In this document: positions 9,432 through 33,021 of the stretch, piece after piece
Layout of the letters: each line of letters begins with the position of its first letter
Position numbering within the stretch: position 1 is the first letter of the stretch
Program-made: the position numbers and the translations under genes
Notes under the pieces: model-generated
Told to the model about the DNA's origin: nothing
The model's database searches: none
The model's input: only the letters and a program-made list of their open reading frames with translations
IMG/VR virus record: IMGVR_UViG_3300037785_000020
Coordinates: 1-59,580 of that record
Reading direction: 5' to 3' (one strand)
Source of the DNA: a virus
Taxonomy: Duplodnaviria > Caudoviricetes
DNA: 59,580 nt

Positions 9432-9460
9432 ATTATACCATAGTTTATGTTATTTGTCAA
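9432..9460 (-). promoter_or_regulatory. sigma70 promoter, perfect consensus
   Basis: TTGACA-N17-TATAAT with extended -10 TG on the minus strand. Confidence 0.85.
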
Positions 9461-19269: not shown

Positions 19270-19497
19270 TTAAGCTCTGCCTTTGAGGGCGGCTTCAATG
19301 TCTTTGGTGAGGTTACTGAGCTGGTGAACCGCTTTGATTTGGCCCGAAGCTTTCAGGATTTCCAACTCCGATGTTGCCGCCGCCTGATCCCGATTGATCT
19401 TGTGGGTTAACACCTCCAGTGCTCGGTTGAGAGCCACCTTGACCTCCTCCCGGCATAGGATTTCCATTGGCTTGGCCTGTTCCTTGGTTAATAGCAT
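19270..19497 (-). CDS. Small protein overlapping the portal 3' end
   Basis: RBS GGAAAGGTG before ATG; helical EI.KASGQIKAV..L motif typical of post-portal genes. Confidence 0.65.
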   Translation of the reverse strand: MLLTKEQAKPMEILCREEVKVALNRALEVLTHKINRDQAAATSELEILKASGQIKAVHQLSNLTKDIEAALKGRA

Positions 19498-21469
19498 TAT
19501 TCACCTTTCCCATTAATTCTGCGTAGAGCATTGCTTTGGTGGGGTCGTTAATGACATCATCCACTTCTAAGCCAGTTGACTTAGCAAACTCTTTAATAAT
19601 CTTTTCCCAGTTAATCAGCGGAGCAAGAGCAGGGTTGGTACCTACTTGCATGAATGACAATAGTCGCTGTGACTGGATTTCTTTTTGTTGATAGGCTTGG
19701 GTGCCCTTGGCTCGGATACGAACATCACCACGGATTTCAGTAATCTCTTCGTTGAACTGCATATTCCAGTGGAAGAGAGCTTCACCTAAGGGTTCTAATA
19801 GATACTGGTCTAAGTTCTTAACGATAGATTTCAGGTGCGTGGTAGCAGCGTTCATCAGCATAGACATACCTGAGGCAGTCCGTGTTTGGCCGGTTGTGTA
19901 CTGACCATAGGAGTAGGATGGTTGGCCGGTTTCCTCATCAGCATACTGTCTGGCTTTGTCAGCTAACTGCATGTTGCTAGGTGCTACGTTCGGTGTGGTA
20001 ATAGAGTACACACTTTGGCCGGGAGCACCGCCATTGGTATAGAATATCTTACCGTTGTAGATGTCCATGTTCTGACCGGCAGAGAGATTATTCTCATTCA
20101 CCTCGAACATGACAGAGCCAGCAAACTTCAGGTTATCTACGGCCATACGCATAGAGCCGTTAATAATCATCTGAGAGTTACGCATATTGCGTGGTAGACC
20201 TTTGCCCCACATCTGGTTGGGATGTTCCTCATACGGTACAGCGTAGTACCAAGGTGCGTCATACACGTCAAAGGGGTTCAGAATAACTTTAAGAACTTCA
20301 TCTCCAGAAATCCATACATTCACAGGTACAAGATCAGAGAACTTTTCGATTTCCTCCTTACTAATACCGTCGATGTTCTCGAGCTGTTCTTGGGTTAGGT
20401 AGCCAGTAAATTCTAAGACTTCCCACTCCTCATTAGGGCCAAGAGACTCATTCTGGTTATCAAGCAGAGAGGTGGCTTCCCACCATTTATCTACATAATT
20501 ACCTTTGCCTTGGAGTAGGCGGTCAATAGCGTCTTTGAAGAAGAATGGCTGGTCTTTGAGGCGGCGAAGTTTGTGTCTGCTAAGCTTGTGGCGTTCGATA
20601 ACATAGGAAGCCTCTTCCATACGCCGTACATGCGGGTCAGGATAGACATTCCAAAGAGTAACAAACTCTGCCTTAGGTACAATTTTAATAATAGGTGAGT
20701 GTACTAAGCCCTCTTCACTATTTTCCCATTTGTGGATGGTTTGTCTGTGGGTCATAGGGCGCTTAACTACACCAGTGCCCATAGCACACATCTCAAGGAT
20801 CATAGCTCGGATTTCACGCTCAGTCTTCTGCTCTACTAGCTGATCTTGAATAACCTTGTTTAGCTTAGCAGCAGTCTCCTCAGCAGGAGAAATAGTTGGT
20901 GCGCCCGGTACATTACCCTCAACGAGCTTTTTACCTGCACCAATAAATTGTGATACACGGTCTTTTAATCCACCGAGAAGCGTAGCTTGGGTAGTGCCCG
21001 GCTCAATAACCCTGCCATCACCTTCATACCCGTAAGGGTCTTCCATTTCCTCAGGAACTATCGAGACTTCCTCGGCAATTCCCTCAGGTACAGGTGTAGG
21101 TTCTACATGGACAGGGAAAGTATCGTCACCAAAGAGGATTTCACATAGCTGCCCGTAGGAAGCCATAGTTTTTGTCTTGGTGATAGGTACTGTCAGGGCG
21201 GATGCAGTGGCGTTACGTTGCCTAGCAGCTTCTACAGCACGTTTCTCGTCATCAGATAACTCTCCGTTGAACTGTTTCCAGTCTTCAAGCCAGATTTGTT
21301 CCTGTGGACGTCTTGCATCCTCAGCCATCGTCTGTTTTTGCTTGATGTCATAGATCAGACCTTCTAACGCACTCTGCTTTTTGTACAGAGAATCGTTACT
21401 CAGGCGATCTTGAGCCTCACCGTCAGGTACAGCGGAGAGTATATCTGTTTTTGGATCAAAGATTTGCAA
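19313..21469 (-). CDS. Portal protein
   Basis: 718 aa; ITKTKT.A.YGQ, GTGV.K, W..YPDP, PYE..P...WG.G, TRTASGMSML motifs; follows TerL. Confidence 0.92.
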   Translation of the reverse strand: MQIFDPKTDILSAVPDGEAQDRLSNDSLYKKQSALEGLIYDIKQKQTMAEDARRPQEQIWLEDWKQFNGELSDDEKRAVEAARQRNATASALTVPITKTKTMASYGQLCEILFGDDTFPVHVEPTPVPEGIAEEVSIVPEEMEDPYGYEGDGRVIEPGTTQATLLGGLKDRVSQFIGAGKKLVEGNVPGAPTISPAEETAAKLNKVIQDQLVEQKTEREIRAMILEMCAMGTGVVKRPMTHRQTIHKWENSEEGLVHSPIIKIVPKAEFVTLWNVYPDPHVRRMEEASYVIERHKLSRHKLRRLKDQPFFFKDAIDRLLQGKGNYVDKWWEATSLLDNQNESLGPNEEWEVLEFTGYLTQEQLENIDGISKEEIEKFSDLVPVNVWISGDEVLKVILNPFDVYDAPWYYAVPYEEHPNQMWGKGLPRNMRNSQMIINGSMRMAVDNLKFAGSVMFEVNENNLSAGQNMDIYNGKIFYTNGGAPGQSVYSITTPNVAPSNMQLADKARQYADEETGQPSYSYGQYTTGQTRTASGMSMLMNAATTHLKSIVKNLDQYLLEPLGEALFHWNMQFNEEITEIRGDVRIRAKGTQAYQQKEIQSQRLLSFMQVGTNPALAPLINWEKIIKEFAKSTGLEVDDVINDPTKAMLYAELMGKVNNAINQGTGQANGNPMPGGGQGGSQPSTGGVNPQDQSGSGGGNIGVGNPESFGPNQSGSPAQ

Positions 21470-21758: not shown

Positions 21759-23879
21759 CTAATAGCCAAACACCGAGTTGATTACGGGTGGGGGCTTTTT
21801 ATACTCTGGTTTATCAAAGAATGATGTGTAGCGTGGGCGGGACAGTAAGAAGAAACGTATGGCGTCCCACGGGTGGTCGTTCTTATGTTTGGTGTCCACA
21901 TCATCTGGGTTTTTGTCATCTGCGGGGAGGGTAGATAAGGAGTCTATAGTCTCGGTGCAGGTGTCAAATATCTGTATTTTAGGTTCGCCTAGGAGTTGGT
22001 CGTCTGCTAAGGCTTGGTGCATAAGCATTTTACCTGCGAGGCGGGAGCCTTGGGATTTATCAGCGTAGCGCCAGATACAGCCCTCTTTACGCATTAACTG
22101 CTCAATACTCATAGGTTGGCCACGTTTATCACCTACTGAGCCATCGATTACACCGTACTGTACATGCTCGCCTTTTTCTAGCTCGAGAACTTTTCTGGCG
22201 TAGACATCAGCGTTAACATCTGTCGCACAATACTCCCGGTAGATATAAGCAACCTCATTTTGGTCTAAAGCAAACCAAAGTGTTACAGCTCTTGTGCTAT
22301 ATCCCCAGTCACACGCTCTAAACCGAGGCCAACTGTGGGGGATAGAGAAGGGTTTAACTACATGCCTAGCACGATCAAACTCGGGGAAAGCCATGCCATC
22401 ACCACCATCCCACGTGCCTTCTAACCATCTCTTTCTTTTATCTTCAGGTAGGGCGGCGAGAGATGCAACGTAAGAATCTTTAATAAGCGGATTATCCATG
22501 AAGTTGGATGTGATCCACTTGCGAGTAGTATAATGGGTCTTCCCGGTATAATCATTTTTGTACTTTACAACGATAGTGGAGTTTTCAGGTCCTTGGTTAA
22601 TAAACCTGTTCTTAACCCATTGAAAGCCAACACCGTAAGGGTTGGTTGTGCAAAGCACTTGTGCAGGTAGGTCTGGGTCGGTAGTACGGACTGAGGAGAT
22701 CAATGCAATATACATATCCTCCTCCGCAATCATCGTCAATTCGTCCACTGCTAGGATACAAAATTCACGACCACGGTACCGTTCTACGTCATCCTTGCCC
22801 TCACAATAACCAAACTCTAGGAAGGCACCTGAAGGGAAATATATTCTATTCTCGGAAGCTCGCCACTTTGTACCGGGTACAGCATCCTTACACATTGCCT
22901 TGGCTTTGGAGATAAGGTCTTGTAACTCTCGCATGGTACGACGGATTACAAGGGCTCGATAGTTGCGATTACCTATATATTCCGGTCTTAGGAGTGCTGC
23001 GATGAGTGCACTCGATTTACCTGAGTTGTGGGTTATAATACCACTATTAGTTTTAAAAAGCGAATCCTCTGCACTTACTGTTATACACCTAACAGGGTGT
23101 ACTCCTATCGCACGGATGTCACTTATAGATTGCCTAGTTAATACTGGTTGCCACCCATCCATTATAGTCTCTTGTAGCAACTCCACCGTGCTGCCATTTA
23201 ACCAATAATCTTGGATAGTGAAGGCCGGTAGGAGTTTTTTGGTGCCGTCCACATAAACTGGGTACAGATGCGCTTCCCCACATCGGGTAACAAGGCCGGT
23301 TTCTGTAGTAAGTTCAAGACAATCATCTAACCCCTCATACGGTATGTCAGTGATGACTGTTTTTCTATTACTCAAATGGTCTATACAGTCACCCACACGC
23401 AACTGCTCAATAGGAACTTCTTTACCGTCAACGAGGACGCTTTCTCCACACACCAGCGGGCCGCGCCCGCCGCTAAGGAGAACTTCATCTTCACCTGCTT
23501 CTAGGAACTCTGTTTGAGGTGAGCGGCCTGTAGTTGGGTTGACAAGAGGTTCAAATAACTTAGGTGTGTTCTTAAGATCGGTGCGGGCAGCTTCCGGTAG
23601 TTCTGGGTCGTCTAAGAGACTAGCATCTATGATGCCGACTTCTTTGTCTATAACTTCTTTAACACCCTTGAGCTTATTCTTCGTTGCTTGGGCTTTCTGC
23701 TTCTCCTCCCAGTTTTTCTGGGCTTCCTCCGTAGTCTTCGATCTGTAGCTCGAGCTCTTCAAGCGTCTTTCCGCCTTTTCTGCCTCGCGGATTTTCTTGT
23801 TTAAGGTGGTCTTCGTATGCTTCTTGCGCGTTTGTTTCTGCTTCTGCGAGGGCAGATCGGTAAAGCCTTTCCCTTTCAT
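21759..23879 (-). CDS. terL: Terminase large subunit (intein-containing)
   Basis: Walker A GGRG|SGKS split by an intein, Walker B LAVDEL, TTNP coupling motif, DWGY nuclease motif, DH.WDA.RF. Confidence 0.95.
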   Translation of the reverse strand: MKGKGFTDLPSQKQKQTRKKHTKTTLNKKIREAEKAERRLKSSSYRSKTTEEAQKNWEEKQKAQATKNKLKGVKEVIDKEVGIIDASLLDDPELPEAARTDLKNTPKLFEPLVNPTTGRSPQTEFLEAGEDEVLLSGGRGPLVCGESVLVDGKEVPIEQLRVGDCIDHLSNRKTVITDIPYEGLDDCLELTTETGLVTRCGEAHLYPVYVDGTKKLLPAFTIQDYWLNGSTVELLQETIMDGWQPVLTRQSISDIRAIGVHPVRCITVSAEDSLFKTNSGIITHNSGKSSALIAALLRPEYIGNRNYRALVIRRTMRELQDLISKAKAMCKDAVPGTKWRASENRIYFPSGAFLEFGYCEGKDDVERYRGREFCILAVDELTMIAEEDMYIALISSVRTTDPDLPAQVLCTTNPYGVGFQWVKNRFINQGPENSTIVVKYKNDYTGKTHYTTRKWITSNFMDNPLIKDSYVASLAALPEDKRKRWLEGTWDGGDGMAFPEFDRARHVVKPFSIPHSWPRFRACDWGYSTRAVTLWFALDQNEVAYIYREYCATDVNADVYARKVLELEKGEHVQYGVIDGSVGDKRGQPMSIEQLMRKEGCIWRYADKSQGSRLAGKMLMHQALADDQLLGEPKIQIFDTCTETIDSLSTLPADDKNPDDVDTKHKNDHPWDAIRFFLLSRPRYTSFFDKPEYKKPPPVINSVFGY
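23025..23459 (-). mobile_element. Class 3-like mini-intein (145 aa) in TerL
   Basis: Starts with Pro (PLVCGESVLV), block F VRCITV, ends ITHN/S; no endonuclease. Confidence 0.85.
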
Positions 23880-25021: not shown

Positions 25022-26200
25022 TTACATTCTCGCGTTTAACCAGTTATGGATTGCCGCAATCTCCCCTGCGGTCGGGCTTTCTGTGCGAACCACCCATGCG
25101 CTTGCGTAAAGGTTCATCGCTCCATAGAAGCCGGAAAAGTTCCCGGAAAAGCCAATTATCCAGTCCTCTCCAGTAGGCGGCGTTCCAGCAGTAGCATCCC
25201 AAGTTACATCTAAAACAACGGTTGTCTTTCCTTCACCAACAAATGTGTTACCCAAAGCCAGTCGATCATCTTTTGCGCCGGTAGTATCAAGAGAACCATT
25301 AATATACACATTGTTAATTGTGCCATTGGCAATTGGAGTGTTAGGCCCCCCTCCGGTGCTCCACGCAAATATAGACGAACCAGCGTTCGTTTCGCCCCAT
25401 AAGGGTATTCTTGTATCGGAAGTCTCGATAGCATGCCCAAGCAACATATTCTTGCTGCTAAGGTCCAGTGCGCCTGAGCCGGTCGCCAAAATGTGATTGG
25501 TTCCGTTGAACTCAAGATAGTTGTTGGTTCCATCATTGCGAAGCACCGGGCGGTCTGCGCTGGTGATCTGGTTCCACATATCATTGACTTCAGTCACGCT
25601 GATAGAATCAATGCTGAGTGTGGAGCCTGCGCTGGCTGCTCCGCCAATGCCTGCGCCAACAAGTCTGGCGGTTGAATCTGCGCGGCGGTAAAAAGTATAG
25701 GTTCCGGGTGTGTTGCCAAAAGGGTAATTCACGTTAAAAGCTGTAATAAAGCAATTACCCGCATCTACCGAAACGCCGGTGATGACCACTTCTACTTTAT
25801 ACCATCGGCCTACTTCAAGCCCCGTAACTGATTGCTGAAGCGCGAGACCAGTGCCTGTACTCAATCTCTCCAACGTCACCACCCCGCCAGACACCGTTGC
25901 TGACAAGCCATCGCCAACAGACCAATCAGTAGCGTCCGTGTCAAAATCCCCGTTGCTTTCAAGCCGAGAGCCTTTATATATCGCCCCGCCATTGGGAAGC
26001 ACCAGCCCTACCGGGTCACCGGCGCTGGCTGCGGTCTGGTCGTCATCCTGAAAAACCACGCCGGAAAGAGTGGTAAGATCAAGTAAGCTGCCGGGGTTTG
26101 CGCCGTCATTGAATAAGGAGAAAATATCCACACCTCTGCCGCCGCCATTCATAAAGTTGAAAAAGTTGCCGTAGAGAGTCAAGTTACATGCCTCGAGCAA
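25022..26200 (-). CDS. Carbohydrate-binding / LamG-like fibre protein
   Basis: FQDD..T.....GDPVGL, NGDF.....W, IDSISV.EV, Q.T...RP, YLEFNG motifs; start uncertain. Confidence 0.65.
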   Translation of the reverse strand: MLEACNLTLYGNFFNFMNGGGRGVDIFSLFNDGANPGSLLDLTTLSGVVFQDDDQTAASAGDPVGLVLPNGGAIYKGSRLESNGDFDTDATDWSVGDGLSATVSGGVVTLERLSTGTGLALQQSVTGLEVGRWYKVEVVITGVSVDAGNCFITAFNVNYPFGNTPGTYTFYRRADSTARLVGAGIGGAASAGSTLSIDSISVTEVNDMWNQITSADRPVLRNDGTNNYLEFNGTNHILATGSGALDLSSKNMLLGHAIETSDTRIPLWGETNAGSSIFAWSTGGGPNTPIANGTINNVYINGSLDTTGAKDDRLALGNTFVGEGKTTVVLDVTWDATAGTPPTGEDWIIGFSGNFSGFYGAMNLYASAWVVRTESPTAGEIAAIHNWLNARM

Positions 26201-26525
26201 CTAAGGTTAGATCAATAGCGCCTGTCTGGGTGCCAACTACCGGTTTGATATAGCGAATACCCGCAACTTTGCTTGGGTCGATAGGTATATATTTACTTGC
26301 GCCGATTGTACCGTCAGGTGTGTATTCTACAGCCAGATAAGTACCATCTAGGGTTGTCGAGGCTGTGAATGTCAGAGTAGAACCATCAAAACCAGACGGG
26401 ATATGTACTCCGCATAGTGTTTTACTACCTAAGTCGATACCGGCAGACGTAGTAGTACCACTGTCAGCAATAGAAGCTGTAAAAGCCTCAATCGCGCCGT
26501 TTTCTAGGTTTACTTTCGTTACCAT
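26184..26525 (-). CDS. Small beta-rich virion protein
   Basis: AAGGA RBS; IDL....L.G..IP..F....LTF..S...GTY pattern. Confidence 0.6.
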   Translation of the reverse strand: MVTKVNLENGAIEAFTASIADSGTTTSAGIDLGSKTLCGVHIPSGFDGSTLTFTASTTLDGTYLAVEYTPDGTIGASKYIPIDPSKVAGIRYIKPVVGTQTGAIDLTLVARGM

Positions 26526-26556
26526 CTTTAATAATTCCTTGTGTTAACCATACTAT

Positions 26557-26599
26557 ACTCAGGAGGGGGTAATTCTCCTTTGGAACTACCCCACCTGAG
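26557..26599 (-). terminator. Long intergenic stem-loop
   Basis: CTCAGG-TGGGGTAGTTC / GAATTACCCC-CT-CCTGAG; no clear U-tract. Confidence 0.5.
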
Positions 26600-26621
26600 A
26601 TGGTTTTTACTTGCTTAGGCA

Positions 26622-27164
26622 TTAAGCAGCGGTCGTAATAGTGATTGCATCCTGTACAGAGCAATATGCAGTCATGAACCAGTTTGTACCATCAGAGATG
26701 ACTCGTACACGATCACCAACTACGGCTTTGGAATCAACCAAAGTAATAGTATCACCACCAGAAGCTTCAAAATCACCAGAGCCAGCAGCATCTTCGCTGG
26801 ATACAACATGACCTACAATAATATTATCCCCACCATTGGTTACGATGGTGTAGGAAGCACCGGAAGGGGCAGCAGCTACGAAGAACTCAAACTCAAGACC
26901 AGCAGCAGGTGCAGGAAGAGTGCTCACAAACTCAGTAGCAGAGCTCAGGAAGAAAGTAGTACCTGTCTCAGCAGCGGTGATTACATTAGTAGCAGTTACG
27001 GTTTCAGTAGTTTTAGTGCCCGCGCCAACAGTAATAGTACCACCAGACTCACTGATAGTGATGTTGTTACCTGCGGTGAGGGTGTTAATAGAGCCCTTAA
27101 CTCGACGGGTATCCCCGAGCAAGGAGGTGCCTGTTGTAGCGGCATCGGATAGACGATAAGACAT
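26622..27164 (-). CDS. Virion structural (head fibre/decoration-like) protein
   Basis: TLPAPAAGLEFEFFV and VGDRV.VISDGTNW motifs; T/A/G-rich. Confidence 0.65.
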   Translation of the reverse strand: MSYRLSDAATTGTSLLGDTRRVKGSINTLTAGNNITISESGGTITVGAGTKTTETVTATNVITAAETGTTFFLSSATEFVSTLPAPAAGLEFEFFVAAAPSGASYTIVTNGGDNIIVGHVVSSEDAAGSGDFEASGGDTITLVDSKAVVGDRVRVISDGTNWFMTAYCSVQDAITITTAA

Positions 27165-27247
27165 TTTGTTTTCTCTTTCTAATTTCTGAAAATGTTTAGT
27201 TAACCGGTCTGTATGCAGACTCTTCTTGCTCTTGGCTAAGGTGGGTG

Positions 27248-27304
27248 TTATTTACCCTTCTTACCGTAGCCTTTAGACTTTTTACCTTTACACATTGAAG
27301 CCAT
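27248..27304 (-). CDS. 18-aa basic peptide MASMCKGKKSKGYGKKGK
   Basis: AGGT RBS, ATG, in-frame TAA. Confidence 0.45.
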   Translation of the reverse strand: MASMCKGKKSKGYGKKGK

Positions 27305-27334
27305 TTGGATTACCTATCTTTCTTAGTTGGGGGT

Positions 27335-27670
27335 TTAATCTCCACATAGGAGTTCTAAAAAATAATCTTTACTACAATGGGGGCAGAGAGTACCGTCGGA
27401 GTAGCTTATGTCAAAACCGATACCCTCTACCATCTCAGGTATCAACTGCTCCCAGTCGTAAATATCTCGTACAAACTTCAGGAGAGGTTCATCACATCCG
27501 GGACAGCTGAATAACTCACCCTCAGTGCGAATAATATTAGGATTTTTTGACACTGCGTCTCCCCGCTTAGTTCCGGGGTAGCTTACACGTTTATGTGTCT
27601 TACCCTCAGAATCCTTGTAGGTGGTGCCATCCCGATATTTGGTATCTGCTGAAACTTTCTTCTTAGTCAT
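27335..27670 (-). CDS. Zinc-ribbon protein with basic N-terminus
   Basis: CPGC...CPHC; ATG at 27670. Confidence 0.55.
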   Translation of the reverse strand: MTKKKVSADTKYRDGTTYKDSEGKTHKRVSYPGTKRGDAVSKNPNIIRTEGELFSCPGCDEPLLKFVRDIYDWEQLIPEMVEGIGFDISYSDGTLCPHCSKDYFLELLCGD

Positions 27671-27860
27671 ACCTAGCACGCTTACCTTTAGACATACGGT
27701 TCTGCTTATTCTTAGCCGCTTCTTTCTTACGCTTCTCTTTTTCCTTAGGGGAGCGGATGGGTAAACTGGATATATCCTTAGTCTCAGCCCTGAACTCTTC
27801 GTAGAGGTCTGGACGATTCTCTTTCATCCATTGTGCTTGCTTGTGTGAGGAAAATGGCAT
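27663..27860 (-). CDS. Small basic phage protein (MPF.S.KQ..WM type)
   Basis: N-terminal motif common in aquatic phages. Confidence 0.65.
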   Translation of the reverse strand: MPFSSHKQAQWMKENRPDLYEEFRAETKDISSLPIRSPKEKEKRKKEAAKNKQNRMSKGKRARYD

Positions 27861-27985
27861 AGGGGTAATACGACACCCCCTGTTGGCGCAAGGGGTGGCC
27901 TTTGGTAAGGTCTTAATTGGGATGGTATGAACAGAGCCCAGTTAGTAGAACTCTAGGAATGAAGAAGTTTTACTTAATATGTACT

Positions 27986-28014
27986 ATTATACCATAGATA
28001 AATAGTAATGTCAA
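27986..28014 (-). promoter_or_regulatory. sigma70 promoter, perfect consensus
   Basis: TTGACA-N17-TATAAT with TG extension. Confidence 0.85.
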
Positions 28015-28055
28015 GCTTTTTCTTTACTTTTCTTAGTTTTTTATTAAGTTTTTTA

Positions 28056-28277
28056 CTAAGGGTTTGTTTTGTAAGGTTCTATTTCTTTATATTTATCCTC
28101 AGGGAAGACTACAGTACCTTCATTGTGCATAAACTGGATAAATCTATGGTATAGATCAGTCTTACCCGCCTTAGCATAGGTCTTTAGCTTAAGGTACACC
28201 ATAAACTCCTGCTCAGGCTTACCTTCGTAGGTATCCAGTAGACTCTTGAGGTACTTTAATTCTGAGGTATGTAACAT
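28056..28277 (-). CDS. Hypothetical protein, probably leaderless
   Basis: 73 aa; only 6 nt separate TATAAT from the ATG. Confidence 0.65.
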   Translation of the reverse strand: MLHTSELKYLKSLLDTYEGKPEQEFMVYLKLKTYAKAGKTDLYHRFIQFMHNEGTVVFPEDKYKEIEPYKTNP

Positions 28278-28283
28278 AAGTGT

Positions 28284-28312
28284 ATTATATCATAGTTAAA
28301 CACCTATGTCAA
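28284..28312 (-). promoter_or_regulatory. sigma70 promoter, perfect consensus
   Basis: TTGACA-N17-TATAAT with TG extension. Confidence 0.85.
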
Positions 28313-28494
28313 GTATTAATGATTAACTTAGTTAAGTCTTAGGTAATTTATTATTTTTTATCTTAGTTAATCTTTAGTAGATACACCTACCCCCTTTCGT
28401 ACTGTGGTAAACTCACTCAGCAAAAGATTAAAAAAATAATCTTAGTGAATATTTAAATAATTACCTTAGGTCTGGGCTAAGTTAGTTATCAAAA

Positions 28495-29168
28495 TATTCT
28501 CCCGGTCAACTTCCTTCGGAAGGTTGCCCTGCACCAAAGCTAACGCTTCGGAGCCGCAAGCCGGGTCTGCTAAATAAGTAATACCACTAGGCATGTCACG
28601 CCTCGGCCGAAGCCGGTACTACTCGTAATCTTTTCACCTACGCTCAGTTGTTTTTCATTGCCTTCCTAAATCAATCTACCTTAGGCGATGGTCTAAGCTT
28701 ACGCTGCATCTATTAAGGTTTCTTAACTTAAGTCGACTTAATGTTAACTAAGTCTTACTAAGCTACTCCCAGTTCCATTGTGCTCGTGCTAAATATTAGT
28801 TAGCCACTGCCCGCGATGGGGAACCCGCAAGTGCTCGGGTATAGGTCTTGGAACTCGTACTGTGCTGCCTACATGACAGAACCGGATACCTACGACATGA
28901 CCTATTCAGTATCCAGTTGTCCTAGCTTCCACTAGGGGGCGTCTATAGGAATGTTCTATCCACCGTAGCTAAGCCTTAGGTCTATTACTAGGTTTCCTAT
29001 AGATTTCACTGAGCAAGGCTACCCCCACCCAATGCCTAGGTCATTTCTGCCTAGGTACTCTCCCTTTCCCTTACATCATCTCCGACAATATCCTTTTCAG
29101 GAATACGGTACTCCGGGGTCCACAGGTTCATGTTGTCGTACGGGTGTGACAGTGCATGAACGATTAGA
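28495..29168 (-). ncRNA. Candidate large structured non-coding RNA (~680 nt)
   Basis: No ORF of 60 aa or more; dedicated perfect promoter; more than ten helices with GAAA and UUCG loops; G-U pairs favour the minus strand. Confidence 0.7.
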
Positions 29169-29174
29169 AACACC

Positions 29175-29203
29175 ATTATAACATAACTTAAAACTTATGT
29201 CAA
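29175..29203 (-). promoter_or_regulatory. sigma70 promoter driving the candidate ncRNA
   Basis: TTGACA-taagttttaagttatgt-TATAAT. Confidence 0.85.
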
Positions 29204-29834
29204 GAACTTTTTTAACTTTAGGAAAAAATAATTTATAAAAAATCAGGCTAAGTGCGGGGACCTACTACCTAAACACTGACTTTATACCGCTTTTACCCTA
29301 AAGTCAAGCAGAAATAGCTTTGCCGCCCGCTTTGGTAAGTTATTGATTTATAAGAAACACAACTATGCCTAGAAAAACCACCTAAACTTACATAATAGCC
29401 TTAGCCTATCAAAAACTTAACTACGATAGGCCGTCTTACCAACGGAACGATCATAGACCCACGGATTTTACCACTTCTTCCTGTGTATAAAACCCTTCAA
29501 AAGCTATTCTACAAATTAAGTATGTGAATTATACTACAACTATGAGTAGAATATCTAAGTATCTGATCTATATACCCCAATTTCAAAATTAACATTTTTT
29601 CTCGGTTGGGCATCCGCAACCATACACCCCCCATTGCCCCCCGCCTACCCCCATAACTGTGACATAAATACCACTGTCAAGCAAAAAGTTAATGCCCAGC
29701 CAGATAATTCCTGAGAAAAGTTTTACCTGTGACATATTTATCACACTACGTTAATTAATATTAACAACGTGTTAATACTACCCACGGTGGAGGCCTTGCT
29801 AAGTTATACCACCCACGGTATAGTATGGGCTATC

Positions 29835-29870
29835 TTAGGAAATATCCTAATGGATTAGGAAATATCTTAA
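29835..29870. repeat. Tandem palindromic operator-like sites
   Basis: TTAGGAAATATCCTAA-tgga-TTAGGAAATATCTTAA. Confidence 0.6.
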
Positions 29871-30165
29871 CACTTGAGGGGAAATAAATAAAAATTTGAC
29901 TTTGTGGCGGGGGTGTGGATTCAAAATGGGCTGAGCGGAGGTATTTTCTATGATAAAAACTATTGACAACGGCGGGAAAATATTGCATGCGCGCCTGCGT
30001 TATCTATTGATAAAGTGCAAGTTAAGGCGTGACTTAACTAGGGGCCTTATAATACCAAGCAAAGCTGAAACTTTTTTCAATTTAATTGCATTTTATGCTT
30101 TACAAAGTTTTTAAAATGGGTAAAGTGAAGATGTAAGCACAACACAACGCAAAAAGGAAAACACA

Positions 30166-30348
30166 ATGACTACTATCTTCTCAGTATTATTTACGGCGCT
30201 TTTCATCACTATTGCAACCGTGGGTACTATCGCTTTTCATACTTTTATCGGTACTGCATTAACTGTGGTAGTAGCTGTTACAAGTCCAGTGTGGGCCTTG
30301 CTTTTAATGCTGCCTATCCTTCACCTAACATCGACGCTAATCCATTAA
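30166..30348 (+). CDS. Small 2-TM early membrane protein
   Basis: AAAGGAAAACACA RBS; almost entirely hydrophobic. Confidence 0.65.
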   Translation: MTTIFSVLFTALFITIATVGTIAFHTFIGTALTVVVAVTSPVWALLLMLPILHLTSTLIH

Positions 30349-30367
30349 AACAAAGGAAAACAAAACA

Positions 30368-30529
30368 ATGTTTGAAGTCATAGAATATAATCACCGCCTA
30401 AAAACAGAGAGGGTTATTGAGGGTCATGAAAATGAAACTGATGCGCTACAATCAATTATAGAACATACACAAGGCCTGCCGCTTGATTGCGTGGAGTATA
30501 TCGCCTACAACTACAAAAGGAGTAACTAA
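30368..30529 (+). CDS. Hypothetical 53-aa early protein
   Basis: AAAGGAAAACAAAACA-ATG; MFEVIEYNHR... Confidence 0.6.
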   Translation: MFEVIEYNHRLKTERVIEGHENETDALQSIIEHTQGLPLDCVEYIAYNYKRSN

Positions 30530-30531
30530 AA

Positions 30532-30720
30532 ATGCGACACTTCAAAGAAACACAAGGGAAAAACCCTTATATCATTAGTGAGAGTAAACCTATCACGAAG
30601 CCAGTGCATGACTATAGAAAAGACTTTGCAAAGCTACTTGATACAGCTTGTAACTATATGCTAGTTGTGTCATTGCTAGGGCTAGCTACTATTTTAACCT
30701 ATCAATATTTTATCAGATAA
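30532..30720 (+). CDS. Small early protein with C-terminal TM helix
   Basis: AAGGAG RBS. Confidence 0.6.
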   Translation: MRHFKETQGKNPYIISESKPITKPVHDYRKDFAKLLDTACNYMLVVSLLGLATILTYQYFIR

Positions 30721-30749
30721 CATTAAACTAAATTAAAGGAGTATTAACC

Positions 30750-31000
30750 ATGAAAAACTATAACTTAGCAGCAAGCGGCTTGCATAGTCACAGCGCGCCA
30801 CATAAGTCACTATTGATCGTCATGCAATTAAAGCTTGCCTAGGTAAAGAATATCACAAGGGCGGCGCACTATCACCTACCCCGAAACGATATAAACAGGC
30901 TGAAAAGCTTTATAAACGCTTAGCAGAGCGTGAGGGATTACTGCCGCATGAATTGCAAGCTATTGTCTGGTGCACCTATAAAAGGATTAACGCAGTATGA
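30750..31000 (+). pseudogene. Frameshifted/deleted remnant of an HhH-GPD glycosylase-like phage protein
   Basis: Strong RBS and ATG give 30 aa; the -1 frame 30806-31000 reads VTIDRHA...LQAIVW with a stop just before it. Confidence 0.55.
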
Positions 31001-31209
31001 TTAAGTTTTTCGAGCTTAGAGAGCAAAGCGTTACCGCTTACCGTGCAAAGGTTGGGGCTAGTCCCTGCCGATACTGCGGGGAAGCTGTAGACGATACCAA
31101 CGGCAAGTTAACAGGTGAGGCGTGGGGCTATGTTATACCTGCGCATCACACTTGCTTTAGTGCAGCACCTCATCCAATTATCAGGAGCAAAACCAATGTT
31201 AGAAATTGA
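30997..31209 (+). CDS. Small Cys/His zinc-binding protein
   Basis: CRYC...HHTC; ATGA coupling to the upstream stop. Confidence 0.55.
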   Translation: MIKFFELREQSVTAYRAKVGASPCRYCGEAVDDTNGKLTGEAWGYVIPAHHTCFSAAPHPIIRSKTNVRN

Positions 31210-31354
31210 ATTAACTAATGCACAAGCTGAAACGCTACGCATCACGTTGTATGGGTACCTAAACTCGCTCAACTTTGAAGAGTTAGAACCAGCAGCCCGG
31301 CACGTTATTGACGGTGATTTATCACAAATATTGAACCAATTAGAGGGAGAGTAA
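31196..31354 (+). CDS. Hypothetical early protein
   Basis: AGGAG RBS before ATG at 31196 (MLEIELTN...). Confidence 0.6.
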   Translation: MLEIELTNAQAETLRITLYGYLNSLNFEELEPAARHVIDGDLSQILNQLEGE

Positions 31355-31535
31355 TTCACATGTTAATTATAATTATAATATTCTGGTTTATATGGCCTTG
31401 GCTATGGCCTTTATGGTTATTATTACTTATAGTAATGTTAGCTGATGGTTAGGCAATAACCTTATATAAAACAACTATAACTTATTTAACCCTTAGATAA
31501 CAAAACCTTAAGACTTAACTTAGGAGGTTGAGAAA

Positions 31536-31727
31536 ATGACTTTAGTAGAAAACAGTAGTCCTATTTGGGGCGTACTAATACAAAATATCTTAGATGATGC
31601 AACCTTAGGAGAAAATGGGAAGTATGAAGCTATCTTTAACTTAGAAGCGCCAGAGGATATAATCAAAGACACCTTAGGTACGGACTATAGAGAATATGTT
31701 TGGTGGACTTATATCAACCTTAAATAA
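31536..31727 (+). CDS. Hypothetical protein
   Basis: AGGAGGT RBS. Confidence 0.6.
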   Translation: MTLVENSSPIWGVLIQNILDDATLGENGKYEAIFNLEAPEDIIKDTLGTDYREYVWWTYINLK

Positions 31728-31937
31728 AGGCTTAGAAGATGAAAGATTATGATTTTAGATTTAACGAACCCGCCGAAGATTGGCAGGACGTAGAGAGAGA
31801 CTTAGCACTGGACATACCTACACTTGATAGGCGATATATCCACAATGTTATACAACCATTAGATGAAACAGAATTTTACTCAGATTAGGTTTGGCACGGG
31901 CTGGCGAGAGCCAGCTTATGCCATGGTGCGAAGCAAC

Positions 31938-31954
31938 TTGGCACGGTTCTTGCT
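31938..31954 (+). promoter_or_regulatory. sigma54 (-24/-12) promoter consensus
   Basis: TTGGCACGGTTCTTGCT: GG-N10-GC with a full TGGCAC-N5-TTGC match. Confidence 0.6.
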
Positions 31955-32090
31955 ATTACCTAAGGTAATATATAGACTAAGATAATAATTATAACTTACC
32001 TTAGGTAATGATATATACTTTACCTTAGATAAAGCCTTAGGTAATATTTAATAAACTTACCTTAGGGAGGCTTACCTAAGTTAAGGCTTA
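31955..32090. repeat. Cluster of TTACCTWAGGTAA-type palindromic repeats, candidate replication origin
   Basis: About six full or partial copies in AT-rich non-coding DNA upstream of primase. Confidence 0.6.
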
Positions 32091-32238
32091 GAGAGGAGAA
32101 AAATCTTATGTTAGAAAATTTAAACGGGGAGAGCTTTTATACCTACTTAGGTAGTCTGTTATACCTAAAGGGTGACTTGGCTCTCCTAGGTACCTTAAAA
32201 TCAATCCTAAGGCTATCCTATGGGTATTCGGAGGGTGT

Positions 32239-33021
32239 ATGTTAGCTGATTTGATAAAAGAGGTACCTGAGGGTGCTACTAGATACTTTACCTGCCCTGA
32301 GTGTGGCTCGCCTAAGAAGTCTTTTGGTATTACGGTAGTGGATGACTCAGCTAAGTTTGGTTGCTTTAGGGCTAGTTGTGGTTATAGGGGTGTTGTACCA
32401 CTTAAGGCTGATCTTACCCGCTTAGAGGGTAGAATCACCTCCCCGCCAAGCCTGAGACAAGTCGCGGGGGAGAAGACTACTTCTTTTGAAGTACCTAAGG
32501 AATGGCTTAGGGGTGCTGCTACTGCTGATGCCTATTCTATGCTTAGTCGGTACCATTGTCTACCTGCCTACAGGAACAAGCTATTCACCTGCTATTATGA
32601 CTTAGCTCAGGAACGCTTAGTAATACTGGTTAAAGACCTTAACGGGAAGGTAACTGGTGGCGTAGGAAGGTTAGTTATACCTAAGAAGGGACAACCTAAG
32701 GTTTATAATTATGGTGATGTTTCTATCCCTTTTAGGTGTGGTAATTCACCTACGGCGGTCATAGTGGAGGATTGCTTTAGTGCCATTGCCTGCGCAAATT
32801 ATAACTTGACAGGGGTAGCCTTGTTAGGTACAAATATTAAGGAGGGGTACTGGCCTTACTTTGATACCTATAGCAAGCTTTATGTTGCCTTAGATAAGGA
32901 TGCAAGGGCTAAGTCGATCAAGTTATGGGGGCAAATGAAAAGCCGTGGCTACGATGCAGATATAATCTTCTTAGAAGAGGATATTAAGAATAACCCAGAA
33001 CAGCTAAAGGATCTAACATGA
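32239..33021 (+). CDS. DNA primase (zinc finger + TOPRIM)
   Basis: CPEC...CFRASC, VIVED..SA, ALLGT, VALDKDA. Confidence 0.9.
   Translation: MLADLIKEVPEGATRYFTCPECGSPKKSFGITVVDDSAKFGCFRASCGYRGVVPLKADLTRLEGRITSPPSLRQVAGEKTTSFEVPKEWLRGAATADAYSMLSRYHCLPAYRNKLFTCYYDLAQERLVILVKDLNGKVTGGVGRLVIPKKGQPKVYNYGDVSIPFRCGNSPTAVIVEDCFSAIACANYNLTGVALLGTNIKEGYWPYFDTYSKLYVALDKDARAKSIKLWGQMKSRGYDADIIFLEEDIKNNPEQLKDLT

What the first reader, a model, noticed from the sequence alone, without database searches (positions are those of the whole stretch)
28495..29203. Candidate ~680-nt ornate non-coding RNA with its own perfect promoter
Seen: a perfect TTGACA-N17-TATAAT promoter (29175-29203, minus) points into ~680 nt with no ORF of 60 aa or more, clearly GC-richer than the AT-rich flanks. 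Helices found by eye (plus-strand coordinates): 29126-29132/29155-29161 at the 5' end; UCCU-GAAA-AGGA (29091-29102); CCUAGGCA-GAAA-UG(A)CCUAGG (29035-29055); a perfect 10-bp stem 28942-28951/28994-29003; 28880-28889/28909-28918; 28771-28777/28849-28855 closing a multibranch; a long-range helix 29008-29018/28637-28648 enclosing ~360 nt; a three-way junction 28576-28624 with a cUUCGg loop; and a terminal multibranch 28501-28565. Several stems contain G-U pairs on the minus strand that would be A-C mismatches on plus, agreeing with promoter orientation. Established: phages carry large ornate ncRNAs of unknown function (GOLLD, ROOL). Inference: this is a highly expressed large structured RNA, either a divergent member of those classes or a new class. 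It lies at the head of the packaging/virion arm, so a packaging, scaffold or decoy (anti-defence) role is conceivable. This is my best candidate for an undescribed system in the window.
Basis: partly seen in the sequence, partly recalled or inferred. Interest (0 to 1): 0.9.

Follow-up and report, generated by a model that had tools for sequence, protein, structure and literature searches.

The report
Orphan promoter-driven untranslated phage RNA candidate
A freshwater phage has a consensus-strength promoter pointing into about 700 bases that code for no protein and fold somewhat better than chance on the transcribed strand, so it is probably a non-coding RNA, but no relative could be found to prove it.

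Summary
The sequence features are real. A perfect TG-extended TTGACA-N17-TATAAT promoter (29203-29175, minus) faces about 690-740 nt with no ORF of 60 aa or more. No frame shows coding potential or a protein-family signal.

Structure on the minus strand is supported only modestly:
- Full-length z is -2.56 (1 of 100 shuffles), against -0.58 on the plus strand. All 12 coding controls lie at or above -1.86.
- Three GNRA or cUUCGg hairpins lie on minus and none on plus (shuffle P 0.003).

It matches none of Rfam's 4227 families, so it is not GOLLD, ROOL, OLE, an intron, RNase P or tmRNA. The phage is a divergent freshwater HMO-2011-type podovirus, and its whole central ~12 kb is lineage-specific. 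I found no homologue in about 220 related loci, 18 related records, the phage database, or four probe scans. Covariation is therefore untested, and no RNA-seq run was listed.

My best reading (0.42) is a stand-alone early structured RNA. Rivals are a cis-acting leader, a transcribed remnant, a DNA-level element and a 42-aa peptide. Earlier notes describe similar promoter-driven RNAs in other phages, but none resembles this one in sequence. Interest is moderate.

The parts
29175..29203 (-). Promoter P1. The -35 TTGACA is at 29203-29198, the spacer is 17 nt, and TGT precedes the -10 TATAAT at 29180-29175. An A/T-rich tract lies upstream (29204-29225).
29168..29168 (-). Predicted transcription start, about 7 nt downstream of the -10. 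This is inferred, not measured.
   Evidence: Inference and general sigma-70 promoter geometry (recalled)
29119..29168 (-). 5' hairpin domain. GUUCAUG/CAUGAAC at 29161-29155/29132-29126 has pair probability 1.00. The inner UGUC/GACA pairs have 0.98.
29035..29102 (-). Two GAAA-loop hairpins. UCCU-GAAA-AGGA (29091-29102) has probability 0.44. CCUAGG...GAAA...CCUAGG (29035-29055) has probability 0.97. A purine-rich single strand lies between them.
29007..29034 (-). A 12-bp G-U-rich hairpin with probability 0.99.
28942..29003 (-). Perfect 10-bp stem UCUAUAGGAA/UUCCUAUAGA enclosing a small branched insert. Probability 0.97.
28865..28936 (-). Three hairpins. CCUAGU-GGAA-GCUAGG is a GNRA hairpin at 28921-28936 (probability 0.98). 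An 11-bp stem lies at 28908-28918/28880-28890 (0.94; subdomain z -2.22, 5 of 200 shuffles). A small hairpin lies at 28865-28879.
28771..28855 (-). Weakly determined multibranch closed by AGUUCC/GGAACU (probability 0.58). Subdomain z is -0.18.
28642..28763 (-). Middle domain. It holds a 10-bp plus 6-bp plus 4-bp extended arm (28665-28732, probability 0.97-0.98) and a hairpin at 28735-28754. It is the best local fold: z -2.97, 0 of 200 shuffles.
28576..28624 (-). Three-way junction. P1 is 10 bp with two G-U pairs (probability 0.93). The arms are GGC-UUCG-GCC (0.98) and AGGCGU-GAC-AUGCCU (0.93).
28501..28565 (-). 3' multibranch. It has a CCGAAGC-GUUA-GCUUUGG hairpin (probability 0.99) and a CUUCC-GAA-GGAAG hairpin (0.90). 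CCGGG at 28505-28501 pairs either locally or with CCCGG at 29117-29113 (0.81).
28466..28594 (-). A 42-aa ORF inside the 3' domain with GAGG-N6-AUG upstream. It reads ...YLADPACGSEALALV... and has coding-like codon usage (0.24, against a region mean of -0.09). It has no family.
28425..28499 (-). Likely 3' boundary. An AT-rich 23-bp imperfect hairpin (28499-28447) is followed by a 7-bp AU hairpin (28442-28425) and UUUG. It is a palindrome on both strands and carries a CCTAAGGTAAT operator-like word. It is not a canonical terminator.
28284..28312 (-). Next perfect promoter, P2. It drives an apparently leaderless 73-aa ORF (28277-28056) whose ATG lies 7 nt after the -10. This marks the end of the unit.

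Best explanation
P1 is a consensus-strength host sigma-70 promoter. It transcribes a roughly 0.7-kb untranslated RNA (minus strand, about 29168 to about 28430) that folds into a chain of local domains: hairpins capped by GAAA, GGAA and cUUCGg loops, a three-way junction and two multibranch domains. Two equally perfect promoters, P2 and P3, lie just downstream and serve the following genes on their own. I therefore take the RNA itself to be P1's product, that is, a stand-alone, abundant structured RNA that works in trans. The most plausible role is binding or sequestering a host or phage macromolecule, as a decoy or scaffold. Shown here: the promoter, the absence of coding capacity, and the strand-specific folding and tetraloop excess. 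Inferred: transcription, the RNA's ends, its abundance and any function. It belongs to no described RNA family and has no detectable homologue in the data I could reach.
For: - **Promoter.** P1 is a perfect TG-extended promoter, one of four in the window and all on minus. It shares its architecture with P2 and P3.
- **No coding capacity.** There is no ORF of 60 aa or more. All 6 frames read through stops gave 0 Pfam and 0 PHROG families. Best-of-six codon-usage score averages -0.09, against a gene mean of 0.36 and a gene 5th percentile of 0.07. It is below that percentile in 9 of 11 windows.
- **Folding.** z is -2.56 on minus (1 of 100 shuffles) against -0.58 on plus. This is lower than all 12 coding controls. 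Minus beats plus in 10 of 12 local windows and in 5 of 6 subdomains. Three subdomains reach z -2.2 to -3.0.
- **Tetraloops.** Three hairpins with at least 4 bp and a GNRA or cUUCGg loop lie on minus and none on plus. The genome mean is 0.23 per 690 nt. Only 2 of 513 minus-strand windows reach 3, and both cover this region. Shuffle P is 0.003.
- **Real DNA.** The region is contiguous and identical in contigs of three pond metagenome runs.
- **Positional analogue.** In related phage record G002, a perfect promoter (L211:1669-1697) is also followed by about 620 nt without an ORF of 50 aa or more. That stretch has z -2.61 on the sense strand (1 of 100) against -1.38 antisense.
Against: - There is no homologue anywhere I could look, so covariation is untested.
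- The folding excess is modest. No 200-nt window inside the region reaches z -2, while coding flanks reach -3.85.
- The 5' domain and the 28765-28860 domain fold no better than shuffles (z -0.68 and -0.18).
- The long-range helix is unsupported.
- There is no canonical terminator, so P1 transcripts may simply run on.
- A second region, on the plus strand at 30246-31050, shows the same tetraloop density, so that statistic is not unique to the candidate.
- In more distant relatives, the ORF-free stretches at this position are DNA-level control regions made of repeats, G-boxes and promoters, not RNA genes.
- The 3' domain contains a 42-aa ORF with a Shine-Dalgarno-like GAGG and coding-like codon usage.
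Confidence: 0.42

Rival explanations
1. The 0.7 kb is a cis-acting structured leader. It is the 5' untranslated part of a long leftward transcript that starts at P1 and continues through P2 and P3 into the virion genes. It would work in cis, for example by stabilising the transcript, resisting Rho or modifying RNA polymerase, as in HK022 put or rrn-leader antitermination.
For: - There is no canonical intrinsic terminator between P1 and P2.
- The transcript is G-rich relative to C (plus-strand GC skew -0.11 to -0.17). By general knowledge (recalled), that makes it a poor Rho substrate.
- Relatives have untranslated stretches of 110 to 620 nt behind their perfect promoter.
- Earlier notes e1-340927 and e1-5358791 describe such leaders in other phages.
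Against: - P2 and P3 are equally perfect promoters that lack this leader, so the downstream genes do not need it.
- No boxA-like or other motif is shared downstream of the four perfect promoters. Only scattered 8-mers appear in 3 of 4.
Confidence: 0.18
2. The region is a transcribed but functionless remnant. It would be a decayed moron or gene fragment, possibly with a DNA methyltransferase origin, left between two promoters in a hypervariable early region.
For: - GC equals coding GC.
- The region is unique to this lineage, as are its neighbours. Of 26 window proteins tested, 20 have no hit in the loci then held. These include all 9 small central ORFs and 11 of the 12 larger products encoded between 24.6 and 36.4 kb.
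- The 392-aa and 260-aa neighbours have only 2 and 3 distant relatives in 5.8 billion proteins.
- One frame reads LADPACGSEALALV, which resembles methyltransferase motif I (LDPACGSGxFL). The same 20-mer occurs in 3 methyltransferase genes of the genome collection.
Against: - There is no residual coding potential outside about 28490-28610.
- No Pfam, PHROG or PDB hit appears even at E 1-10.
- The methyltransferase proteins align only 8-36 aa around the seeded motif (E 0.6-1.5).
- The opposite strand of the same 20-mer mimics an unrelated motif (TEPQAGS) found in 3 other hits, so the resemblance can be chance.
- A neutral remnant would not be expected to show strand-specific folding or a tetraloop excess.
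Confidence: 0.25
3. The element works at the DNA level or through an R-loop. It would be an origin or control region activated by transcription from P1, with the G-rich transcript acting as a primer precursor in the manner of ColE1 RNA II or the T4 origin transcripts.
For: - It lies 0.5-1.3 kb from the divergence point of the two gene arms, where cumulative GC skew reaches its minimum at about 29.7 kb.
- The transcript contains G runs such as GGGUGGGGG and GGGAAAGGGAG.
- In relatives, the ORF-free regions at this position are DNA-level control regions.
- Operator-like CCTAAGG words flank the region.
Against: - The repeated operator-like words concentrate outside the candidate. There are 7 CCTAAGG in 31360-32238 against 0.28 expected, and only a modest CCTAG excess of 8 against 1.8 inside it.
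- The G-box of the relatives is absent from the central region. Of 10 matches at up to 2 mismatches, none lies in 27.7-32.2 kb, and 11.7 are expected by chance.
- There are no internal repeats.
Confidence: 0.07
4. The functional product is the 42-aa peptide encoded at 28594-28466, and the upstream 570 nt is its leader.
For: - GAGG lies 6 nt before the AUG.
- The codon-usage score of 0.24 is near the lower quartile of real genes.
Against: - The start codon and the GAGG are buried in the three-way junction (probability 0.93).
- In 1.84 billion representatives only 3 proteins match. One is the ORF itself and two are long repeat proteins hit 7-8 times by low-complexity similarity.
- There is no Pfam or PDB match.
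Confidence: 0.05

Closest known systems
GOLLD (RF01998) and ROOL (RF03087), large ornate RNAs of phages and prophages
   Same: The size class matches: the ROOL example is 659 nt and GOLLD is often above 800 nt. Both are phage-encoded, have no protein-coding capacity, have many GNRA-capped helices and have no known function. These features come from passages of PMC12286853 read.
   Different: There is no covariance-model match even at E up to 10. There are no tRNA genes nearby or anywhere in the window, whereas both families are described as often lying near tRNA islands. No pseudoknots or covariation are shown here. This RNA is an orphan rather than a widespread family.
Untranslated leaders of phage and rRNA operons that act on RNA polymerase (HK022 put RNA; rrn boxA/boxB leaders). 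Features recalled; compare earlier notes e1-340927 and e1-5358791.
   Same: It lies directly behind a very strong host-type promoter at the head of a long operon. It is a folded, untranslated RNA with no strong terminator.
   Different: It is about ten times longer than put. No boxA-like word is shared behind the four perfect promoters. The next promoters, P2 and P3, bypass it.
ColE1 RNA II, a roughly 550-nt structured primer precursor (recalled)
   Same: It is of similar length, has a strong promoter, and gives a folded G-containing transcript near a putative replication control region.
   Different: No origin is mapped, no antisense RNA I-type promoter was found, and there is no sequence similarity. 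The comparison is purely by analogy.
phi29 pRNA (packaging RNA)
   Same: It is a phage-encoded structured RNA encoded near the packaging genes.
   Different: pRNA is about 170 nt and restricted to phi29-like phages with terminal-protein genomes (recalled). No Rfam match was found. The terminase here is a standard large subunit.

Membership tests
GOLLD RNA (RF01998) | Match to the family covariance model, including its universally conserved 3' region | tested here: not met
   There were 0 matches at gathering score over the whole window. GOLLD was not among the 2 and 1 sub-threshold matches at E up to 10.
GOLLD RNA (RF01998) | Encoded in phages or prophages, often beside tRNA islands (PMC12286853, passages) | tested here: not met
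   The phage context holds, but ARAGORN finds 0 tRNA genes in the window.
ROOL RNA (RF03087) | Match to the family covariance model | tested here: not met
OLE, HEARO, raiA, group I/II introns, RNase P, tmRNA, 6S and known self-cleaving ribozymes (Rfam 15) | Match to any of the 4227 covariance models | tested here: not met
   Searches gave only chance-level hits: U4atac at 18.4 bits against a threshold of 53, MIR6217 at 12.8 against 110, and Xist_exon4 at 11.1 against 100. ARAGORN finds no tmRNA. There is no exon context for an intron, since a promoter lies upstream and a promoter lies downstream.
Structured non-coding RNA gene (generic) | Own promoter | tested here: met
Structured non-coding RNA gene (generic) | Own terminator or defined 3' end | tested here: inconclusive
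   No terminator-like site lies on the minus strand in 26000-32000. Only AT-rich hairpins followed by a short U run are present.
Structured non-coding RNA gene (generic) | No coding capacity | tested here: met
   The caveat is the 42-aa ORF.
Structured non-coding RNA gene (generic) | Folding energy below shuffles on the sense strand only | tested here: met
   The excess is modest: z -2.56 (1 of 100) against -0.58 on plus. The 12 coding controls lie at or above -1.86. Local windows are unremarkable.
Structured non-coding RNA gene (generic) | Compensatory base changes among homologues | not testable with these tools
   No homologue was found. The three runs that hold the region are identical to it.
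Structured non-coding RNA gene (generic) | Detected transcript | not testable with these tools
   No run on record as RNA was listed.
rrn/put-type antitermination leader | Conserved boxA-like or put-like element behind each promoter | tested here: not met
   No shared motif appears in the 200 nt downstream of the four perfect promoters. The host consensus is unknown, so this is a weak test.

The most novel reading that the evidence does not exclude
This is the founding member of a new class of roughly 0.7-kb ornate phage RNA, unrelated to GOLLD or ROOL. It would be made in large amounts from a consensus early promoter of a freshwater HMO-2011-type podovirus, and would act in trans as an RNA-only scaffold, cage or decoy against a host factor or defence. 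The differently sequenced ORF-free transcribed stretch at the same position in a related phage (L211:1698-2320) would then be a fast-evolving counterpart. In that case this phage group carries a hypervariable RNA gene slot at the head of its virion arm.
Probability: 0.2. Interest if true: 0.6.

Novelty: new variant of a known kind. Interest (0 to 1): 0.35.

Why it matters
Large structured RNAs of phages such as GOLLD and ROOL are abundant and form striking assemblies, yet their function is unknown. Each new, unrelated example with a clear promoter gives another tractable case. HMO-2011-type phages are among the most abundant aquatic viruses. A term search of one group-wide genomic study (PMC9038755) found no mention of non-coding RNA, intergenic regions or promoters. 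If this group carries RNA genes at the head of the virion arm, that would be a new element of their biology. As it stands, the candidate is a single-lineage orphan without covariation or expression data. It is therefore a lead for a targeted experiment, not a finding that changes current views.

Tried and rejected
**Known families.** Rfam was searched at gathering score over the window and at E up to 10 over 28100-29600 and 28425-29170. It returned only noise. ARAGORN found nothing.

**Protein remnants.** Six-frame read-through translations gave 0 of 6 frames with a Pfam hit and 0 of 6 with a PHROG hit. The 42-aa ORF had no Pfam family at E up to 10. A 59-aa read-through gave only PlyB_C at 13.3 bits against a cutoff of 27. 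There was no PDB match. The representative library returned 3 hits: the ORF itself and two repeat proteins.

**Homologues by synteny**
- Single-protein scans of the viral collection with the 392-aa neighbour and the terminase found no relative.
- The portal profile returned 80 loci. P0004 returned 47 metagenome loci with best identity 44%, and its own contig was not among them. P0004 returned 76 viral loci, and P0006 returned 3.
- nhmmer and blastn of the RNA against these loci found nothing beyond chance matches of 19 nt or less.
- The only relative with 56% portal identity and a long contig (G001) lacks exactly the central region, corresponding to about 27.5-35 kb of the window.
- The primase neighbour has no close relative.

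**Covariance model.** Model R1 covers the 3' domain. It found only itself in 2 x 100 sources, and nothing real in L209, L211, L212, L202 or L203.

**BLAST.** A search against 18 full related records gave only matches of 31 nt or less, with E of 0.01 or higher (2 further handles were not held). The 'distant' blastn against 50,697 phage records gave no match.

**Probe scans.** Three scans of the viral collection gave two chance hits in unrelated contigs and one blank. One scan of the genome collection gave 8 hits, all sharing only the 20-mer. Six lie in protein-coding genes (3 methyltransferase, 3 with the TEPQAGS motif) and 2 lie in unrelated open frames.

**Analogous gaps in relatives.** Clusters A and B are DNA-level control regions and not homologues. 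Eight of those loci have no Rfam hit at gathering score. The L211 analogue has no relative among the loci held and no Rfam hit.

**Antisense targets.** Complementarity between the RNA and sense transcripts of the phage was no better than chance. The best matches were 13 nt exact or 19 of 21, with E 0.5 or higher. The 15-nt match to ORF73 mRNA (pair I22) is at chance level by my estimate of about 0.5 expected.

**Neighbouring small proteins.** There were no Pfam hits above threshold and no informative PHROG.

**Expression.** No RNA holder was listed. The contigs of 3 DNA runs were identical to the window, so there is no microdiversity to use.

**Literature**
- Searches for 'HMO-2011' with 'noncoding RNA' found 0 papers, and with 'promoter' and 'intergenic' found 0 papers.
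- 'GOLLD', 'ROOL' and 'phage' from 2023 found 5 papers, of which 4 were listed.
- 'bacteriophage', 'large noncoding RNA' and 'covariation' found 2 papers, of which 1 was listed.
- For PMC9038755 I saw only the search listing and a term search with 0 occurrences.
- For PMC12286853 I saw the abstract and passages.
- Supplements were not opened.

**Earlier notes of this scan.** There are no look-alike stretches by sequence or by place.
Full report
**Context.** The window is one virus record of 59,580 bases, linear, with a CheckV completeness estimate of 92%. Virion and packaging genes run leftward on the minus strand from about 27.7 kb. These include the terminase large subunit (21759-23879) and the portal/adaptor (19313-21469). 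Replication genes run rightward from 32.2 kb, starting with a primase-like protein at 32239-33021. Between the arms lie about 4.5 kb with only small ORFs. The portal is about 41% identical to those of Puniceispirillum phage HMO-2011, Roseobacter CRP phages and Pelagibacter HTVC phages. It matched 39 phage records, all below 60% identity. The phage is therefore a divergent HMO-2011-type podovirus. The three runs that hold the region are pond metagenomes.

**The observation.** The promoter at 29203-29175 (minus) matches 12 of 12 consensus positions with a TG before the -10. It is one of four perfect copies in the window, all on the minus strand. At up to one mismatch there are 8 matches against 0.48 expected, and 0 of 100 shuffles reach 8. 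P1, P2 (28312-28284) and P3 (28014-27986) share an A-rich upstream tract and the core CTTGACAT...TATGnTATAAT. They look like a real promoter family. Downstream of P1 there is no ORF of 60 aa or more. The largest on the sense strand are 41 and 42 aa. GC is 0.43-0.49 against 0.33-0.39 in the flanks, but this only equals the window mean of 0.446.

**Coding or not.** Reading all six frames through stops gave no Pfam and no PHROG family (0 of 6 frames each). I trained a codon-usage log-odds score on 23 long genes of the window. The best-of-six score averages -0.09 across the region, against 0.36 in genes with a 5th percentile of 0.07. It is below that percentile in 9 of 11 windows. The exception is about 28490-28610, which scores 0.24. 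A 42-aa ORF lies there (28594-28466), preceded by GAGG-N6-AUG. That peptide has no Pfam or PDB match. In 1.84 billion representative proteins it hits only itself and two long repeat proteins matched 7-8 times by low-complexity similarity. A recently decayed gene is therefore unlikely. A small peptide cannot be excluded, but nothing supports it.

**RNA structure**
- Full length. The 689-nt sense strand folds with z -3.14 (0 of 20 shuffles) and -2.56 (1 of 100). The antisense strand gives -0.46 and -0.58.
- Controls. Twelve coding windows of the same length, on their sense strand, gave z from +2.98 to -1.86. The candidate is the lowest, but not by much.
- Local scan. In 200-nt windows, none of the 12 starting at 28450-29000 reaches -2 (range +0.60 to -1.97). 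Coding flanks reach -3.85. The -5.75 at 28400-28599 is matched by -5.09 on the other strand and comes from an AT-rich palindrome.
- Strand bias. The sense strand folds better than the antisense in 10 of these 12 windows and in 5 of 6 subdomains. Three subdomains are clearly better than shuffles: 28630-28770 (z -2.97, 0 of 200), 28485-28628 (-2.51, 3 of 200) and 28870-28925 (-2.22, 5 of 200). The 5' domain (-0.68) and 28765-28860 (-0.18) are not.
- Tetraloops. Hairpins with at least 4 bp closed by GNRA or cUUCGg occur three times on the sense strand and never on the antisense. The genome mean is 0.23 per 690 nt. Only 2 of 513 minus-strand windows reach three, and both cover the candidate. Shuffles give P 0.003. 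A plus-strand region at 30246-31050 reaches the same count.
- Ensemble. Most local helices are well determined, with 3 of the 5 reader helices measured at 0.94-1.00. The long-range helix enclosing about 360 nt has probability about 0.001, because both of its strands prefer local partners.
- Conclusion. I see a chain of local domains with a real but modest strand-specific signal. I do not see a demonstrated ornate global fold.

**Ends of the unit.** No terminator-like site lies on the minus strand. After the 3' multibranch come a 23-bp AT-rich imperfect hairpin (28499-28447) and a 7-bp AU hairpin followed by UUUG (28442-28425). P2 follows at 28312-28284. Its -10 lies 7 nt before the ATG of a 73-aa ORF, which therefore looks leaderless. 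A discrete RNA is thus not shown. Still, P2 and P3 make the downstream genes independent of P1, and this is my main reason to prefer a stand-alone RNA over a leader.

**Known families.** No Rfam 15 model matches at gathering score anywhere in the window. At E up to 10 only chance hits far below threshold appear. There is no tRNA or tmRNA. GOLLD and ROOL are described as phage or prophage RNAs that often lie near tRNA islands (PMC12286853, passages). Neither the model match nor the tRNA neighbourhood holds here.

**Search for relatives**
- The closest portals are 74, 61, 56, 55, 52 and 49% identical.
- From the viral, metagenome and genome collections I gathered about 220 loci.
- None holds a sequence or 3'-domain covariance-model match to the RNA. 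Nor do 18 full related records or the phage database.
- The 56% relative G001 is a contig whose two ends flank exactly the missing central region.
- The lack of homologues says little about function, because the whole centre of this genome is lineage-specific. Of 26 window proteins compared with the loci, 20 have no hit. These include all 9 small central ORFs and 11 of the 12 larger products encoded between 24.6 and 36.4 kb. The 392-aa and 260-aa neighbours have only 2 and 3 distant relatives in 5.8 billion proteins.
- The three pond runs carry the region without a single difference, so there is no microdiversity to use.

**Probe scans.** Two 19-mers hit one unrelated contig each, and one 20-mer hit nothing in the viral collection. 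A 20-mer from the 3' domain hit 8 bacterial genomes. All share only the 20-mer. Three lie in large methyltransferases, where it encodes LDPACGSG (motif I). Three lie on the other strand in proteins with TEPQAGS. The window's 42-aa ORF reads LADPACGSEAL at that spot. The methyltransferases align over only 8-36 residues around the seed (E 0.6-1.5), and no family model matches. I treat this as a probable coincidence and a weak lead for the remnant hypothesis.

**What relatives have at this position.** More distant relatives carry conserved ORF-free stretches 4-5 kb upstream of the portal. Alignments show that these are DNA-level control regions. They consist of a terminator, AT-rich repeated words, G-rich boxes and then a perfect sigma-70 promoter in front of the first gene. 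They are not homologous to the candidate, and the G-box is absent from the window's centre. In the window, similar palindromic words (TTACCTAAGGTAA) cluster outside the candidate, at 28320-28470 and especially 31360-32238. The latter stretch holds 7 CCTAAGG against 0.28 expected. One complete relative, G002, does resemble the window. A perfect promoter at L211:1669-1697 is followed by about 620 nt without an ORF of 50 aa or more. That stretch has z -2.61 on the sense strand (1 of 100) against -1.38 antisense. It shares no sequence with the candidate or with any other locus held.

**Mechanism.** No target emerged. Complementarity to the phage's own sense transcripts is at chance level. No boxA-like word is shared behind the four perfect promoters. 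The neighbouring small proteins have no family.
- I commit to a stand-alone, strongly transcribed structured RNA acting in trans as a decoy or scaffold, at confidence 0.42.
- The rivals are a cis-acting leader (0.18), a functionless transcribed remnant (0.25), a transcription-activated DNA or R-loop element (0.07) and the 42-aa peptide (0.05).
- Only the promoter, the lack of coding capacity and the strand-specific folding and tetraloop signals are shown. Transcription, the ends of the RNA, its abundance and its function are inferred.

**Novelty and score.** If real, this is a new family within a known kind, the large phage non-coding RNAs. It is known from one lineage only. Earlier notes of this scan describe comparable promoter-driven ORF-free RNAs in other phages, but none resembles this stretch in sequence. 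Without covariation or expression data, I rate interest at 0.35.

Noticed in passing
window 31360-32238, 28320-28470: Palindromic operator-like words (TTACCTAAGGTAA / CTTAGGTAAT) cluster in the non-coding stretch in front of the primase gene. That stretch holds 7 CCTAAGG against 0.28 expected. They also cluster between the candidate RNA and P2. They are probably binding sites of a phage regulator or initiator.
   Followed up: partly
window 28056-28312: The 73-aa ORF starts at an ATG 7 nt after the -10 of the perfect promoter P2, so its mRNA is probably leaderless. The protein has no Pfam or PHROG family.
   Followed up: partly
window 9432-9460 (minus): A fourth perfect TG-extended consensus promoter lies inside the virion arm, in front of the 485-aa gene at 7915-9372.
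   Followed up: no
window 30246-31050 (plus): The plus-strand small-ORF region has three GNRA-capped hairpins. This is the only other place in the window with that density.
   Followed up: no
L211:1669-2320: In a complete related phage record of 59,354 nt, a perfect sigma-70 promoter is followed by about 620 nt without an ORF of 50 aa or more. The stretch folds better on the sense strand and contains two GGACAGGGG boxes. It may be a positional counterpart of the candidate.
   Followed up: partly
L149:596-1271, L198:787-1490, L122:5279-5969, L109:1469-3059, L124:2619-4233, L202:1046-2267: Distant HMO-2011-type relatives share conserved ORF-free control regions upstream of the virion arm. These have G-rich boxes, repeated TACTTAAGTA or CTTAGGGTATAT words and a perfect promoter at their end. 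L109, L124 and L202 have no Rfam hit at gathering score. The cluster A loci were not searched.
   Followed up: partly
window 30604-30754 and 31196-31344: Run X1 holds low-depth contigs that match these two short stretches with 6 and 17 differences and then diverge (tables 7 and 8). A related phage in the same kind of sample shares pieces of the early region.
   Followed up: no
L130 / G001 (46,717 nt): The nearest long relative in the viral collection (portal 56% identical) is a contig whose ends flank exactly the central early region that holds the candidate. The assembly may break there.
   Followed up: partly
window 27335-27679 (minus): The 114-aa product has sub-threshold zinc-finger-like hits, including AdfA (anti-DarT factor A) at 18.5 bits against a cutoff of 27.
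   Followed up: no
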